The notes: generated by a model from the letters alone, not told the origin. Positions 56,173-61,483 are shown, counted from the first letter of the stretch. The stretch: DNA of 64,000 nt from Escherichia coli (GCF_017348835.2 NZ_CP071375.1); one strand, 5' to 3'. Numbers and translations: made by a program.

Positions 56173-57149
56173 AACCAGTCCACTTCATCTTTATGCTCTT
56201 CGAAATCGGCGCGCATCACCTCAATCAGCTCCACCATATCTTGTGGAATAGGCGCATGCCATTCCATTTCGATACCGGAGATCGGGTGATAAAGACGCAG
56301 CATGGTTGCATGAAGCGCCTGGCGGTCAAATTTACGCAGCGTGGAGATAAACGCTTCCGAAGCACCTTTTGGCGGACGCGGACGGCCACCATAAACCGGA
56401 TCGCCCACCAGCGGATGAGTGATATGGGCCATATGCACGCGGATCTGGTGCGTACGTCCAGTTTCCAGACGCAACCGCAGACGCGTGTGCACACGGAAGT
56501 GTTCCATGATGCGATAGTGAGTCACCGCCGGTTTGCCCATCGGATGCACCGCCATGTGAGTACGTTTGGTCGGGTGGCGGCTGATTGGTTCATCTACTGT
56601 ACCGCCAGCGGTCATATGACCAATTGCCACCGCTTCATACTCACGAGTAATTTCACGCCTTTGCAAAGATTCGACTAAACGCGTCTGAGCCGGAACGGTT
56701 TTTGCCACAACCATCAGGCCAGTGGTGTCTTTATCCAGACGATGGACGATGCCCGCACGTGGTACATCGGCAATGGGCGGATAGTAATGAAGCAACGCAT
56801 TCAGTACCGTGCCATCCGGGTTACCCGCGCCAGGATGTACCACCAGATCGCGCGGTTTATTAATGACGATGATATATTCATCTTCATAGACGATATCCAG
56901 CGGGATATCCTGCGGTTCAAAACGCGCTTCTTCTTCAATCTCAGCATTGATGGCAACCTGCTCGCCACCCAATACTTTTTCTTTCGGCTTATCACAAACT
57001 TTGCCGTTTACCAGCACGCGCTGGTCGAGGATCCATTCTTTTATTCGCGAACGTGAATAATCCGGGAACATTTCGGCCAAAGCCTGATCTAAGCGTTGTC
57101 CGAGTTGGTTTTCGGACACCGTTGCAGTGAGCTGTACTCGTTGTGCCAT
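56169..57149 (-). CDS. rluD: 23S rRNA pseudouridine synthase D
   Basis: S4 domain plus RluA-family catalytic motif HRLDKDTTG; 326 aa. Confidence 0.95.
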   Translation of the reverse strand: MAQRVQLTATVSENQLGQRLDQALAEMFPDYSRSRIKEWILDQRVLVNGKVCDKPKEKVLGGEQVAINAEIEEEARFEPQDIPLDIVYEDEYIIVINKPRDLVVHPGAGNPDGTVLNALLHYYPPIADVPRAGIVHRLDKDTTGLMVVAKTVPAQTRLVESLQRREITREYEAVAIGHMTAGGTVDEPISRHPTKRTHMAVHPMGKPAVTHYRIMEHFRVHTRLRLRLETGRTHQIRVHMAHITHPLVGDPVYGGRPRPPKGASEAFISTLRKFDRQALHATMLRLYHPISGIEMEWHAPIPQDMVELIEVMRADFEEHKDEVDWL

Positions 57150-57283
57150 ATATACTGCTTCTTCGTTTATCGTTGGGGTTTTACGGCTTTGCCGTTTAAT
57201 ATAGTGTGCTATTGTAGCTGGTCTTAACCGGGAGCAGGAACAGAGAATCTCCCGTATTACATTTTGAGGAAAGTCAAAACGTC

Positions 57284-58021
57284 ATGACGCGCATGAAATA
57301 TCTGGTGGCAGCCGCCACACTAAGCCTGTTTTTGGCGGGTTGCTCGGGGTCAAAGGAAGAAGTACCTGATAATCCGCCAAATGAAATTTACGCGACTGCA
57401 CAACAAAAGCTGCAGGACGGTAACTGGAGACAGGCAATAACGCAACTGGAAGCGTTAGATAATCGCTATCCGTTTGGTCCGTATTCGCAGCAGGTGCAGC
57501 TGGATCTCATCTACGCCTACTATAAAAACGCCGATTTGCCGTTAGCGCAGGCTGCCATCGATCGTTTTATTCGCCTAAACCCGACCCATCCGAATATCGA
57601 TTATGTCATGTACATGCGTGGCCTGACCAATATGGCGCTGGATGACAGTGCGCTGCAAGGGTTCTTTGGCGTTGACCGTAGCGATCGCGATCCTCAACAT
57701 GCACGAGCTGCGTTTAGTGACTTTTCCAAACTGGTGCGCGGCTATCCAAACAGTCAGTACACCACCGATGCCACCAAACGTCTGGTATTCCTGAAAGATC
57801 GTCTGGCGAAATATGAATACTCCGTGGCCGAGTACTATACAGAACGTGGCGCATGGGTTGCCGTCGTTAACCGCGTAGAAGGCATGTTGCGCGACTACCC
57901 GGATACCCAGGCTACGCGTGATGCGCTGCCGCTGATGGAAAATGCATACCGTCAGATGCAGATGAATGCGCAAGCTGAAAAAGTAGCGAAAATCATCGCC
58001 GCAAACAGCAGCAATACATAA
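57284..58021 (+). CDS. bamD: Outer membrane assembly lipoprotein BamD
   Basis: [22 protein letters not shown] lipobox plus TPR-like repeats; 245 aa. Confidence 0.95.
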
Positions 58022-58058
58022 CAGAAACCTGAAACACAAAACGGCAGCCCTTGAGCTG

Positions 58059-59484
58059 TAATGCCAGTCAGTTAAGCAACTGACTGGCTCTTTTTCGGGG
58101 CTGTGGGGTATTTCCAGGGCCTCTCCTTTACCACTCTCGGGAAGGCCCTTTCCCTTCTTGTCGGTAATTTCACAAGTTGTCCCATACTTGCAAGATCGCG
58201 CATCAGCTCCGGTATACGTCCCGGTGAAGCGCCCTGCAATGTCATCAGCATTCTCATCACCATTCCGCATGATTCTGAGAAGCTCAGTTGATTTGGCCAG
58301 TAACCTTTCAGATGTTCCGCCATTTTAATCATCTGATATCTCACCAGATTATAAGCCAGTAAGACACCCCACAGCTCTTGCTCCACAAGCTCAGGCTTTT
58401 TACTTCTCAGCGTCAGCCTGCTCAGTTGCATCGTCTGTTTTATCTCCCTGTATCCCAGTTCGATTTCCCAGCGATGACTGTACAGATCCGCCATTTCTCC
58501 TCCGGGGAAGCGCATGGCGTCCGTCATCGACGTCAGCAGATGGCAGACTTTTCCTTTGCGCGTCACGGTCAGCAGGCGGGCTGTCACCTCATTTCCCAGT
58601 CCCGGCCACTTTTTTCGTGCCTGCGGGCTGGTTTTCAGCTTCACCAGATGATCGCCTTTACCCAGTTTTCTGATCTCTTCATATTGCGCTCCCTTTCTGA
58701 GAGGGATCATCCAGTGGCGGTGTTCTCCCGCCAGGCTCCAGGCATTTAACAATCCCAGTGAGTAATAACCTTTATCCATTAACGTCAGAGTGTTATCGCC
58801 GGTTTGTTCTATAAGTTGCTCAGCAAGCTCATTTTCGCTGTTCTTCATCGTGCCGAAGGCTGCAGCCGTCAGCAGATGGCTGGTCAGTTCCATCTGGCAG
58901 ACCATTTTGACCTGCGGGTAGAGCGCCGGGGTCCCGGCATGTGTCTGGCGAGGGAAGGCTGCATCGTTCTCTGGTGTATCCGGTGTGCGCCAGAACACAC
59001 CATCGATGGCCAGCAGGGTCAGGCCGCACCAGTGCGGATGCGGCGTGGCGTTATGCCAGAGCTGCGCTGTTTTCGTGAACACGCGGCGGACAGCCTCACT
59101 TCCCAGGCGCTGGCGGGCCTGAATAACAGCACTGGGGGCAACGAAGGTGCGATTGCCCGGCAGCATGATGTCCAGGCGATTCACAATCTGGTGAAGAGGT
59201 TCTTTACGCTCAAGCGCCATGCCAACAATACACCAGACCATCATTTCGAGGGGAAGACGGCGCTTGCGTAGCGTTACAGTACCTGATTCGGCAAGGCAAC
59301 GAGAGATGAGTTCGGGGTCGAGGTAATCTCCCAGAGAAGTCAGTGGGTTACGCAGAGAATCGTAACGGGATACCAGATCAAGAGCCTGTCCAATGTGCAT
59401 AAAAAAATCCGGAAACGAGTGAGCGTTTCCGGATTCTTACACAGCCACTGGATCGGTCAACTGATCCTTAACTGATCGGCATTA
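58059..59484 (-). mobile_element. IS4 insertion sequence, complete (1426 bp)
   Basis: Inverted termini TAATGCC...GGCATTA, single 442-aa transposase ORF, flanked by direct repeats CAGCCCTTGAGCTG at 58045-58058 and 59485-59498. Confidence 0.92.
58072..59400 (-). CDS. insG: IS4 transposase (DDE family)
   Basis: 442 aa, [50 protein letters not shown]..., recalled as IS4 InsG. Confidence 0.92.
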
Positions 59485-59677
59485 CAGCCCTTGAGCTGCC
59501 GTTTTTTTATTCTGTCAGTTGTGAAACTGAAGCGATTTAGTCGCTATCGATCTCATCAAATATGGCTCGCTTTGAGATATTCCTCAAGTAAAAAAACACC
59601 TCTTCCTGCGATTTCTCACAAAAAAGATTCGTTGACAAAAAGTGACAAAATTATGAGATTTCCATCACACATTTTGA

Positions 59678-60073
<396 letters not shown>

Positions 60074-60096
60074 TCCTTTATATTGAGTGTATCGCC

Positions 60097-60120
60097 AACG
60101 CGCCTTCGGGCGCGTTTTTT
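60097..60120 (+). terminator. raiA rho-independent terminator
   Basis: AACGCGCC-TTCG-GGCGCGTT hairpin followed by TTTTTT. Confidence 0.75.
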
Positions 60121-60121
60121 G

Positions 60122-60160
60122 TTGACAGCGTGAAAACAGTACGGGTACTGTACTAAAGTC
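60122..60160 (+). promoter_or_regulatory. pheL-pheA promoter
   Basis: TTGACA -35 at 60122-60127 and an A/T-rich -10 region upstream of pheL. Confidence 0.6.
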
Positions 60161-60176
60161 ACTTAAGGAAACAAAC

Positions 60177-60224
60177 ATGAAACACATACCGTTTTTCTTC
60201 GCATTCTTTTTTACCTTCCCCTGA
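60177..60224 (+). CDS. pheL: pheA leader peptide (15 aa, Phe-rich)
   Basis: ATG AAA CAC ATA CCG TTT TTC TTC GCA TTC TTT TTT ACC TTC CCC TGA = [15 protein letters not shown]. Confidence 0.93.
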
Positions 60225-60271
60225 ATGGGAGGCGTTTCGTCGTGTGAAACAGAATGCGAAGACGAACAATA

Positions 60272-60299
60272 AGGCCTCCCAAATCGGGGGGCCTTTTTT
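60272..60299 (+). terminator. pheA attenuator terminator
   Basis: GGCCTCCC-AAATC-GGGGGGCC hairpin followed by TTTTTT between pheL and pheA. Confidence 0.85.
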
Positions 60300-60322
60300 A
60301 TTGATAACAAAAAGGCAACACT

Positions 60323-61483
60323 ATGACATCGGAAAACCCATTACTGGCGCTGCGAGAGAAAATCAGCGCGCTGGATGAAAAATTATTAGCATTACTCGCA
60401 GAGCGGCGCGAACTGGCCGTCGAGGTGGGAAAAGCCAAACTGCTCTCGCATCGCCCGGTACGTGATATTGATCGTGAACGCGATTTACTGGAAAGATTAA
60501 TTACGCTCGGTAAAGCGCACCATCTGGACGCCCATTACATTACTCGCCTGTTCCAGCTCATCATTGAAGATTCCGTATTAACTCAGCAGGCTTTGCTCCA
60601 ACAACATCTCAATAAAATTAATCCGCACTCAGCACGCATCGCTTTTCTCGGCCCCAAAGGTTCTTATTCCCATCTTGCGGCGCGCCAGTATGCTGCCCGT
60701 CACTTTGAGCAATTCATTGAAAGTGGCTGCGCCAAATTTGCCGATATTTTTAATCAGGTGGAAACCGGCCAGGCCGACTATGCCGTCGTACCGATTGAAA
60801 ATACCAGCTCCGGTGCCATAAATGACGTTTACGATCTGCTGCAACATACCAGCTTGTCGATTGTTGGCGAGATGACGTTAACTATCGACCATTGTTTGTT
60901 AGTCTCCGGCACGACTGATTTATCCACCATCAATACGGTCTACAGCCATCCGCAGCCATTCCAGCAATGCAGCAAATTCCTTAATCGTTATCCGCACTGG
61001 AAGATTGAATATACCGAAAGTACGTCTGCGGCAATGGAAAAGGTTGCACAGGCAAAATCACCGCATGTTGCTGCGTTGGGAAGCGAAGCTGGCGGCACTT
61101 TGTACGGTTTGCAGGTACTGGAGCGGATTGAAGCGAATCAGCGACAAAACTTCACCCGATTTGTGGTGTTGGCGCGTAAAGCCATTAACGTGTCTGATCA
61201 AGTTCCGGCGAAAACGACGTTGTTAATGGCGACCGGGCAACAAGCCGGTGCGCTGGTTGAAGCGTTGCTGGTACTGCGCAACCACAATCTGATTATGACC
61301 CGTCTGGAATCACGCCCGATTCACGGTAATCCATGGGAAGAGATGTTTTATCTGGATATTCAGGCCAATCTTGAATCAGCGGAAATGCAAAAAGCATTGA
61401 AAGAGTTAGGGGAAATCACCCGTTCAATGAAGGTATTGGGCTGTTACCCAAGTGAGAACGTAGTGCCTGTTGATCCAACCTGA
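60323..61483 (+). CDS. pheA: Bifunctional chorismate mutase / prephenate dehydratase
   Basis: 386 aa, [39 protein letters not shown]... Confidence 0.97.

What the first reader, a model, noticed from the sequence alone, without database searches (positions are those of the whole stretch)
58064..59436. Terminator-like hairpins just inside both IS4 ends
At the bamD-proximal end, CCAGTCAGTT-AAGC-AACTGACTGG (58064-58087) is a perfect 10-bp stem followed by CTCTTTTT in the direction of incoming bamD transcription. Directly upstream of the transposase ATG, ATCCGGAAACG-AGTGAG-CGTTTCCGGAT (59409-59436) is an 11-bp stem followed on the transposase strand by a T-run and the start codon. Both would block read-through from flanking genes, and the second could also occlude the transposase ribosome-binding region, consistent with IS self-insulation.
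Basis: seen in the sequence. Interest (0 to 1): 0.25.

Follow-up and report, generated by a model that had tools for sequence, protein, structure and literature searches.

The report
Inward-facing terminators at both IS4 ends
The two hairpins are real, evolutionarily conserved transcription stop signals just inside each end of the mobile element IS4; they shield it from transcription coming in from neighbouring genes, a known kind of self-insulation shown here for the whole IS4 group.

Summary
Window 58059-59484 is a 1426-bp IS4 copy, 98.9% identical to the E. coli K-12 copy, inserted in the loop of the bamD terminator. Both hairpins exist. A is 58063-58088 followed by TCTTTTT on the + strand.

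Neither is chance: about 0.25 perfect 10-bp hairpins are expected per shuffled 64-kb window. Both are kept in IS4 relatives down to 49% protein identity, with compensatory stem changes (A: 96% of cells paired, 4 pairs with double changes; B: 89%, 10 of 15 pairs).

Published K-12 data place an RNA 3' end one base after hairpin A's T-run. A 98-nt RNA enters the other end and stops at hairpin B.

New here: the conserved transposase promoter has its -10 hexamer ending at the base of hairpin B. The element's own mRNA should therefore start inside the 5' arm and escape both termination and masking of the Shine-Dalgarno-like sequence. That start site is predicted, not mapped.

The principle is known from IS200, IS10 and IS50, so this is a new member of a known kind. 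In passing: IS4 relatives insert at the apex of host terminators.

The parts
58059..59484 (-). IS4 element, 1426 bp, transposase on the minus strand
   Evidence: It is 100-95% identical to IS4 in 2769 E. coli records. It differs at 15 positions from the K-12 MG1655 copy at 4502090-4503515.
58072..59400 (-). Transposase ORF (insG homologue), 442 aa
   Evidence: ORF list. Pfam Nterm_IS4 at 6e-33 and DDE_Tnp_1 at 1e-31.
58045..58058 (.). Left copy of the target duplication CAGCCCTTGAGCTG (loop plus inner stem of the bamD terminator)
   Evidence: family D10.
59485..59498 (.). Right copy of the target duplication, followed by CCG and T7 (59502-59508), the 3' half of the bamD terminator
   Evidence: family D10.
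58059..58076 (.). Terminal inverted repeat next to the transposase stop codon (TAATGCCAGTCAGTTAAG)
   Evidence: I1. It matches the other end at 16 of 18 positions.
59467..59484 (.). Terminal inverted repeat upstream of the transposase gene (TAATGCCGATCAGTTAAG on the minus strand)
58063..58088 (+). Hairpin A: 11-bp stem GCCAGTCAGTT/AACTGACTGGC, loop AAGC. The 5' arm lies in the terminal repeat, and the transposase stop codon (58074-58072) overlaps the loop and 5' arm.
   Evidence: I9. Conserved in 53 of 54 distinct ends of relatives. Covariation.
58089..58096 (+). T-rich tail TCTTTTT of hairpin A and the position equivalent to the mapped RNA 3' end (58096)
   Evidence: The Term-seq 3' end at MG1655 4502127(+) is IS position 38.
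59407..59434 (-). Hairpin B: 11-bp stem ATCCGGAAACG/CGTTTCCGGAT, loop CTCACT, extendable by A-U/G-U pairs to 59403-59438. The 3' arm holds the Shine-Dalgarno-like GGA.
   Evidence: I5. Present in 39 of 39 distinct relatives. Covariation.
59401..59407 (-). Run of T (7, the first shared with the stem) between hairpin B and the ATG at 59400-59398
   Evidence: The same arrangement holds in all relatives but one.
59455..59460 (-). Predicted -35 hexamer TTGACC, with GATC sites at 59451-59454 and 59463-59466 on either side (a third at 59474-59477 in the terminal repeat)
59433..59438 (-). Predicted -10 hexamer AAGAAT preceded by TG. It overlaps the base of hairpin B. Predicted start of the element's own mRNA is about 59428-59425, inside the 5' arm.
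   Evidence: The same geometry holds in about 36 of 40 distinct relatives. The start site is inferred, not mapped.

Best explanation
Both hairpins are Rho-independent terminators that face inward from their own end of IS4. They stop RNA polymerase that enters the element from flanking genes.

Hairpin A uses the terminal inverted repeat as its 5' arm. It ends + strand transcripts, here from bamD, whose own terminator the insertion split. These transcripts stop about 37 nt inside the element, before they can run antisense through the transposase gene.

Hairpin B ends transposase-sense transcripts that enter from the other side. They stop in the T-run that directly precedes the ATG, so terminated RNAs carry no start codon. 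Any RNA that escapes termination has its Shine-Dalgarno-like bases locked in the 3' arm.

The element's own promoter (TTGACC, 16 bp, TG-n-AAGAAT) is nested in hairpin B, with the -10 hexamer ending at the base of the stem. Its own mRNA is therefore predicted to begin near the top of the 5' arm. Such an mRNA cannot form the hairpin, is not terminated, and is open for translation.

Shown: the anatomy, the conservation and covariation, and in vivo RNA ends in K-12. Inferred: the start site of the element's own mRNA, the translational masking, and the efficiency of termination.
For: Anatomy and stability.

Hairpin B:
- All 39 distinct 5' regions from relatives of 49-96% protein identity fold into a hairpin of -14.6 to -31.6 kcal/mol. 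In all but L025 it abuts a T-run and the start codon.
- On the model-fitted alignment, 89.4% of cells are paired and 10 of 15 pairs show changes on both sides. No shuffle of 500 reaches the covariation score, and slid controls are much lower.
- An independent RNAalifold run on a plain MAFFT alignment finds the same helix, with 7 of 11 pairs compensatory.

Hairpin A:
- It is present in 53 of 54 distinct ends, each followed by a T-rich run.
- 96.2% of cells are paired and 4 pairs show double changes in 29 cells. No shuffle of 500 reaches the score, and slid controls are near zero.
- It is kept where the ORF stops 32-37 nt before the IS end (L004, L037, L054, L071, L075, L078), so it is not merely coding sequence.
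- Its inner arm follows changes specific to this end rather than the other terminal repeat (L070).

In vivo data from K-12:
- A Term-seq 3' end at 4502127(+), labelled 'antisense insG', appears in three listings. It equals IS position 38, the base after CTCTTTTT.
- The 98-nt RNA ECS094 spans 4501450-4501548 (minus strand, U00096.2 coordinates). It runs from 10 nt outside the IS to 4-5 nt past the ATG. The coordinate offset of 1977 is fixed by the ECS094 sequence.

Promoter nesting: in about 36 of 40 distinct relatives the best sigma-70 match has a 16-bp spacer and a -10 hexamer that ends exactly at the GC core of the stem.

Folding of the two RNA forms: read-through RNA folds to -45.8 kcal/mol (z -5.2). 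The predicted own leader folds to -7 to -8 kcal/mol (z about 0). The 3' arm is about 95% paired in read-through RNA in 39 of 39 relatives.
Against: - No mapped start site for the transposase mRNA was obtained, so the claim that it starts inside the hairpin rests on promoter geometry alone.
- No Term-seq 3' end is listed at hairpin B in K-12. The 98-nt RNA boundary comes from coverage and lies about 5 nt past the T-run.
- Hairpin A leaks. A Rho-dependent termination region is listed 49 nt further on, at 4502176(+).
- Hairpin A's stem is only about half G+C, and its tail is interrupted (TCTTTTTC).
- The alignment used for hairpin B's pair counts was fitted to the structure, and the sequences are related, so the shuffle counts overstate significance.
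- The strand bias of G-U pairs is weak once shared pairs are removed.
- A DNA-level role for the palindrome at the end of the element is not excluded.
Confidence: 0.75

Rival explanations
1. Hairpin B is an attenuator of the element's own transcript. On this view the transposase promoter starts upstream of the whole hairpin, so nearly all of the element's own transcripts terminate before the ATG. That would keep transposase very low, and insulation from outside transcription would be a side effect.
For: The only K-12 RNA found over this region (ECS094, 98 nt) spans the whole hairpin and ends at it. insG mRNA is barely detectable in those data sets. No start site inside the hairpin was found.
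Against: ECS094 starts outside the IS, 10 nt out in Romero et al. and 31 nt out in Shinhara et al., so it is a read-in transcript and not a product of the internal promoter. The conserved TTGAC(C)/16 bp/-10 match places the predicted start 7 nt past the -10, inside the 5' arm, in about 36 of 40 lineages. An element whose own mRNA always terminated would gain nothing from that fixed geometry.
Confidence: 0.15
2. Hairpin A is selected as a DNA palindrome. The inner arm would be an inverted copy of the terminal repeat used by the transposase, for example as a second binding site or for distinguishing the two ends. RNA termination there would be incidental.
For: The 5' arm is the terminal repeat itself, from IS position 2 to 13 in most relatives. 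Only this end has the palindrome, which could mark end asymmetry.
Against: The palindrome is always followed on the inward side by a T-rich run, which DNA binding does not require. A 3' end is mapped exactly there in vivo. The few non-Watson-Crick pairs in the core are mostly G-U on the incoming strand: 5 stem types against 1 with A-C.
Confidence: 0.12
3. Hairpin A mainly serves the transposase mRNA in the sense direction, as a 3' stem-loop that protects it from exonucleases.
For: The stop codon overlaps the hairpin in most relatives, so the sense transcript can form the same stem (-19 kcal/mol, z -4.4).
Against: On the sense strand there is no T-run after the stem, and no minus-strand 3' end is listed there in K-12 Term-seq. 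The conserved run of A upstream on the sense strand has no role in this model, but is the U-tract in the terminator model.
Confidence: 0.08
4. The hairpins are chance palindromes, or by-products of coding sequence and terminal repeats, with no function.
For: None beyond the fact that part of A is coding and part is the terminal repeat.
Against: About 0.25 such hairpins are expected per shuffled window. Both are conserved with compensatory changes down to 49% protein identity. A persists where it is non-coding.
Confidence: 0.01

Closest known systems
IS200 left-end terminator
   Same: IS200 has a Rho-independent terminator (nt 12-34) placed just inside one end, upstream of the transposase gene. 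It protects against impinging transcription, and a further structure sequesters the Shine-Dalgarno sequence. This is as described in Ellis et al. 2015, PMC4513863.
   Different: - In IS200 the terminator lies upstream of the transcription start (about nt 40), and Shine-Dalgarno masking uses a second, separate stem-loop.
- In IS4 one hairpin would do both jobs, and the promoter -10 hexamer and predicted start are nested in it.
- IS4 also has a second inward-facing terminator at the other end.
- IS200 belongs to an unrelated transposase family (IS200/IS605).
Fold-back inhibition in IS10 and IS50 (same IS4 family)
   Same: Transcripts from outside carry both halves of an inverted repeat and hide the translation start signals. 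The element's own transcript starts between the halves and stays open. IS10 also has Dam (GATC) control of its promoter. This description is from my own knowledge of Kleckner's and Reznikoff's work; I could not read the papers here.
   Different: In IS10 and IS50 the structure is not followed by a U-tract and acts on translation only. In IS4 the hairpin is a canonical terminator, and an in vivo RNA end lies beside it. The start site of IS4's own mRNA is predicted, not mapped.
ISPpu9 of Pseudomonas putida
   Same: This IS inserts into extragenic palindromes (REP sequences), and its transposase is controlled by 5' UTR secondary structure (PMC8450116; title and abstract seen).
   Different: It belongs to a different family and also uses two small RNAs. 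It targets REP elements rather than terminators. No pair of end terminators is described in the abstract; I did not read the full text.

Membership tests
IS4 (IS4 family, IS4 subgroup) | Single transposase with the IS4 N-terminal domain and a DDE domain | tested here: met
   Pfam Nterm_IS4 at 6e-33 and DDE_Tnp_1 at 1e-31.
IS4 (IS4 family, IS4 subgroup) | 1426 bp with 18-bp imperfect terminal inverted repeats starting TAATGCC | tested here: met
   The element spans 58059-59484, which is 1426 bp. The repeats match at 16 of 18 positions. It differs at 15 of 1426 positions from the annotated K-12 IS4.
IS4 (IS4 family, IS4 subgroup) | Target duplication of about one helical turn (about 10 bp for the family according to PMC2266710; 11-13 bp for IS4 from memory) | tested here: met
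   The window has 14 identical flanking bases, which may include 1-3 chance matches. K-12 has 12, and relatives have 9-14.
Rho-independent (intrinsic) terminator | Stable G+C-containing stem-loop immediately followed by a U-rich tract on the transcribed strand | tested here: met
   A has an 11-bp stem with 6 G-C pairs, then UCUUUUU. B has an 11-bp stem with 6 G-C pairs, then U6-7.
Rho-independent (intrinsic) terminator | RNA 3' end in vivo within or at the end of the U-tract | tested here: met
   Met for A: the K-12 Term-seq end lies one base after the T-run. For B the evidence is only approximate: the boundary of the 98-nt RNA lies about 5 nt past the T-run, and no Term-seq peak is listed.
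Rho-independent (intrinsic) terminator | Termination by purified RNA polymerase without Rho, and measured efficiency | not testable with these tools
   This needs in vitro transcription or reporter assays. A separate Rho-dependent region is listed 49 nt downstream of A.
Fold-back inhibition of IS transposase translation (IS10/IS50 type) | The inverted repeat includes the ribosome-binding signals | tested here: met
   GGA, AGG, AGGA or AGGAG lies 7-9 nt before the start codon, always in the 3' arm (read). The arm is about 95% paired in read-through RNA in 39 of 39 relatives. Pairing of the start codon itself is variable and not conserved.
Fold-back inhibition of IS transposase translation (IS10/IS50 type) | The element's own transcript starts between the two halves of the repeat | tested here: inconclusive
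   This is predicted from conserved promoter geometry. No start-site data were obtained.
Fold-back inhibition of IS transposase translation (IS10/IS50 type) | Read-through transcripts are translated less than the element's own transcripts | not testable with these tools
   This needs translational fusions.

The most novel reading that the evidence does not exclude
The IS4 subgroup is built as a 'terminator swap' element.

It inserts at the apex of host intrinsic terminators. Most of 47 reconstructed empty sites of relatives are A-run / GC stem / loop / stem / T-run hairpins. About 10 gave no clean target duplication, and the K-12 site is not a good hairpin.

It carries its own inward-facing terminator within 90 nt of each end. 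Whichever way it lands, the flanking genes would get a working terminator back. The transposase is then expressed only from a promoter nested inside one of these terminators, possibly under Dam control.

This would be a coherent design that lowers the cost of insertion to the host. I did not find it described in the papers I could read.
Probability: 0.45. Interest if true: 0.55.

Novelty: new member of a known kind. Interest (0 to 1): 0.38.

Why it matters
It explains how a widespread group of insertion sequences stays silent and does little damage when it lands behind expressed genes. Incoming transcription is stopped within tens of bases of either end, and only the element's own weak promoter can make transposase.

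For annotation, the 3' end of bamD mRNA in this strain is probably set by IS4 and not by the bamD terminator. The K-12 'small RNA' ECS094 and the 'antisense insG' 3' end are by-products of these terminators.

The nested promoter-terminator and the preference for inserting into terminators give simple, testable predictions. They may also be useful as compact insulating parts.

Tried and rejected
- **Rfam** at E up to 1 over 57000-60500: nothing inside IS4, only the pheL leader nearby.
- **MAFFT alignment including L025**: it wrecked the alignment. Even without L025, MAFFT shifts one clade by one column, so pair counts were made on a covariance-model alignment. That alignment leans towards the structure and includes 5 reverse-strand rows.
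- **First attempt to locate IS ends by a strict pattern**: it failed and was redone with a looser pattern.
- **Start-site data for insG**: not found in the supplements of PMC4782308 or PMC10301672. PMC11092163 has no held supplements. PMC4288677 and the 1998 IS review PMC98933 are not held.
- **Original IS4 sequence paper** (Klaer et al. 1981): it could not be read, so I cannot say whether it already noted these palindromes.
- **'IS4 family goes genomic'** (PMC2266710): it mentions neither terminators nor stem-loops.
- **Conserved extension of hairpin B over the start codon**: rejected. It forms in the E. coli element, but start-codon pairing is not consistent across relatives.
- **G-U versus A-C strand-bias test**: it gives only weak support once shared pairs are removed.

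Full report
**What is there.** Window 58059-59484 is a complete 1426-bp IS4.
- It carries one 442-aa ORF on the minus strand (59400-58072) with the Pfam domains Nterm_IS4 and DDE_Tnp_1.
- It has 18-bp terminal inverted repeats (TAATGCC...) that match at 16 of 18 positions.
- It is flanked by a direct repeat, CAGCCCTTGAGCTG, at 58045-58058 and 59485-59498.
- It is 100-95% identical to IS4 copies in 2769 E. coli records. It differs at 15 positions from the annotated K-12 MG1655 copy at 4502090-4503515.
- Removing the element and one repeat copy restores AAAACGGCAGC-CCTTGA-GCTGCCGTTTTTTT. This is a canonical terminator 17 nt after the bamD stop codon, so IS4 sits in the loop of the bamD terminator.
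- This junction occurs in 69 of 5426 complete E. coli genomes.

**The observation.** Hairpin A is as described. It is in fact 11 bp (58063-58073 with 58078-58088), has loop AAGC, and is followed by TCTTTTT on the + strand. Hairpin B has the stated sequence, but its arms are at 59407-59417 and 59424-59434, 2 nt lower than given. On the minus strand it is followed by a run of T and then the ATG at 59400.

The folds are -19 to -23.6 kcal/mol with z-scores of -2.9 to -6.7. Perfect hairpins of at least 10 bp occur at 11 places in the window, against 0.25 expected from shuffles. The terminator scan lists A. It misses B only because it extends B's stem into the T-run.

The 5' arm of A is the terminal inverted repeat itself, and the transposase stop codon overlaps A's loop and 5' arm. 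The promoter scan finds TTGACC, 16 bp, then TG-n-AAGAAT on the minus strand, with the -10 hexamer (59438-59433) overlapping the base of hairpin B.

**Comparison with relatives.** A scan of one genome per species returned 80 loci that encode transposases 49-96% identical to this one.

*Hairpin B.*
- All 39 distinct 5' regions fold into a hairpin of -14.6 to -31.6 kcal/mol. In all but one (L025) the hairpin is followed by a T-run and then directly by ATG or TTG.
- The stem sequences differ between lineages. Examples are ATCCGGAAACG, ATCCGATGCC, AAAGGCCTACAG, AAAGGTCCTAAC and ATCCGTACTTAG, each with a matching 3' arm.
- RNAalifold on a plain MAFFT alignment recovers the helix, with 7 of 11 pairs compensatory.
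- On a covariance-model alignment, 89.4% of cells pair and 10 of 15 pairs have changes on both sides. No shuffle of 500 reaches the covariation score, and slid controls are far lower. That alignment is fitted to the structure and contains five reverse-strand rows.

*Hairpin A.*
- It is present in 53 of 54 distinct ends (-15 to -22 kcal/mol). In most relatives it runs from IS position 2 to 13, and it is always followed on the inward side by a T-rich run.
- On an ungapped-stem MAFFT alignment, 96.2% of cells pair and 4 pairs show double changes in 29 cells. No shuffle of 500 reaches the score, and slid controls are near zero.
- The hairpin and the adjacent A/T run persist in six lineages whose ORF stops 32-37 nt before the IS end, so coding cannot explain them.
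- Where this end differs from the other terminal repeat (for example TAATGCCGTTCAC against TAATGCCGATCAG in L070), the inner arm follows this end.

**Experimental data from the K-12 copy.**
- Adams et al. 2021 (PMC7815308, supplementary file 1) list a Term-seq 3' end at 4502127(+), labelled 'antisense insG', with the sequence ...TAATGCCAGTCAGTTAAGCAACTGACTGGCTCTTTTT|C. It appears three times in a file that covers three growth conditions.
- With IS4 at 4502090-4503515, that end is IS position 38. It is the base after the T-run of hairpin A and equals window 58096.
- Their supplementary file 2 lists a Rho-dependent termination region at 4502176(+), so some polymerases pass A.
- Romero et al. 2014 (PMC4681348, supplementary sRNA table) list a 98-nt RNA, ECS094, at 4501450-4501548 on the minus strand in U00096.2 coordinates.
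- The ECS094 sequence in Shinhara et al. 2011 (PMC3175480) reads GAUAGUUUGUUACAAACACCAGAACCAAGAU|UAAUGCCGAUCAG.... This fixes the coordinate offset at 1977.
- The 98-nt RNA therefore runs from 10 nt outside the IS, through the terminal repeat and hairpin B, to 4-5 nt past the ATG. This is what a read-in transcript stopped at B should look like, although the boundary is based on coverage.
- No Term-seq peak is listed at B. No start site for insG could be found.

**How it most likely works.** Each hairpin is an intrinsic terminator for polymerase entering from its own end.

Hairpin A stops transcription that would otherwise run antisense through the transposase gene. In this window it most likely sets the 3' end of bamD mRNA.

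Hairpin B stops sense transcription immediately before the start codon. RNAs that escape have their only Shine-Dalgarno-like bases in the 3' arm: GGA here, and AGG, AGGA or AGGAG in other lineages, each 7-9 nt before the start. That arm is about 95% paired in read-through RNA in 39 of 39 relatives.

In about 36 of 40 distinct relatives the best sigma-70 match has a 16-bp spacer and a -10 hexamer that ends exactly at the GC core of the stem. This puts the predicted start at nt 10-13 of a 12-16-nt 5' arm. An RNA starting there folds no better than random (-7 to -8 kcal/mol, z about 0), whereas the read-through RNA folds to -45.8 kcal/mol (z -5.2). The element's own mRNA would therefore escape both termination and masking. 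This last step is inference from conserved geometry and is not shown.

**Rivals.**
- *Attenuator of the element's own transcript.* This fits the absence of start-site data. It does not fit the fixed promoter geometry, nor the fact that ECS094 starts outside the IS.
- *DNA-level role for the palindrome at hairpin A.* This cannot be excluded. It explains neither the conserved T-run nor the mapped 3' end.
- *G-U pair strand bias.* G-U pairs favour the incoming strand for A and the sense strand for B, but the signal is weak once shared pairs are removed.
- *Chance.* Excluded.

**Comparison with what is known.** The principle is established. [quoted passage not shown] IS10 and IS50 hide the translation start of read-through transcripts, as I recall from my own knowledge.

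IS4 differs in three ways. One hairpin would serve both purposes, the promoter appears to be nested in it, and a second terminator guards the other end. I found no description of this for IS4 in the papers I could read; 'IS4 family goes genomic' mentions neither terminators nor stem-loops. I could not read the 1981 IS4 sequence paper or the 1998 review. I therefore rate it a new member of a known kind, of modest interest.

**Seen in passing.** Most of 47 reconstructed empty sites of IS4 relatives are terminator-like hairpins, with the duplication covering the loop and inner stem. About 10 showed no clean duplication, and a few fold poorly. Together with the two end terminators this suggests a 'terminator swap' design, which I give as the most novel reading still open.

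Noticed in passing
Window 58036-58058 plus 59485-59508; loci L001-L081 (flanks of each IS): IS4 relatives insert at the apex of intrinsic-terminator-like hairpins. Most of 47 reconstructed empty sites read A-run / GC-rich stem / short loop / stem / T-run, with the 9-14 bp duplication covering the loop and inner stem. About 10 gave no clean duplication. The window site is the bamD terminator and fits AAA-N20-TTT. The K-12 site fits AAA-N20-TTT but is not a good hairpin.
   Followed up: partly
Window 59451-59454, 59463-59466, 59474-59477; and 52 listings: GATC (Dam) sites flank the predicted -35 hexamer (GATCaGTTGACCGATC). They are kept in enterobacterial, Vibrio and Alteromonas-type relatives. 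In a few others (L022, L026, L058, L070) a GATC sits at the -10 hexamer instead. They are absent from the promoter of the Pseudomonas and Halomonas lineages. From my own knowledge those hosts lack Dam, which would suggest methylation control as in IS10.
   Followed up: partly
Window 58042-58058 with 58097-58105: In the fold of 58030-58110, the left half of the split bamD terminator (GGCAGCCC) pairs with IS-internal GGGGCTGTG and encloses hairpin A (-35.9 kcal/mol, z -4.5). The K-12 flank cannot do this, so it is probably a coincidence of this insertion site.
   Followed up: no
Window 59417: This is the only difference from the K-12 copy that falls in either hairpin. The window has G and K-12 has A, which turns the apical G-C pair of hairpin B into G-U on the transposase strand.
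   Followed up: yes
L004 and L005 (Pectobacterium aroidearum): These two IS copies lack matching direct repeats. The left flank of L004 matches the right flank of L005, and the left flank of L005 matches the right flank of L004. This indicates a rearrangement by recombination between the two copies.
   Followed up: no
Window 60176-60301: The Phe leader (pheL attenuator, Rfam RF01859, 132 bits) lies upstream of pheA, as expected for the rluD-bamD-raiA-pheLA region.
   Followed up: no
Window 5570, 8395, 12521, 22234, 25675, 33503, 37228, 52707, 61491: Nine further places have perfect hairpins of at least 10 bp with 3-8 nt loops. They are presumably terminators or REP elements and were not examined.
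   Followed up: no
L052, L053, L056, L059, L066, L072, L074, L077: In one clade of relatives the position homologous to the ATG is TTG, directly after the T-rich tail (CTTTTCTT-TTG). The transposase there probably starts at TTG.
   Followed up: no
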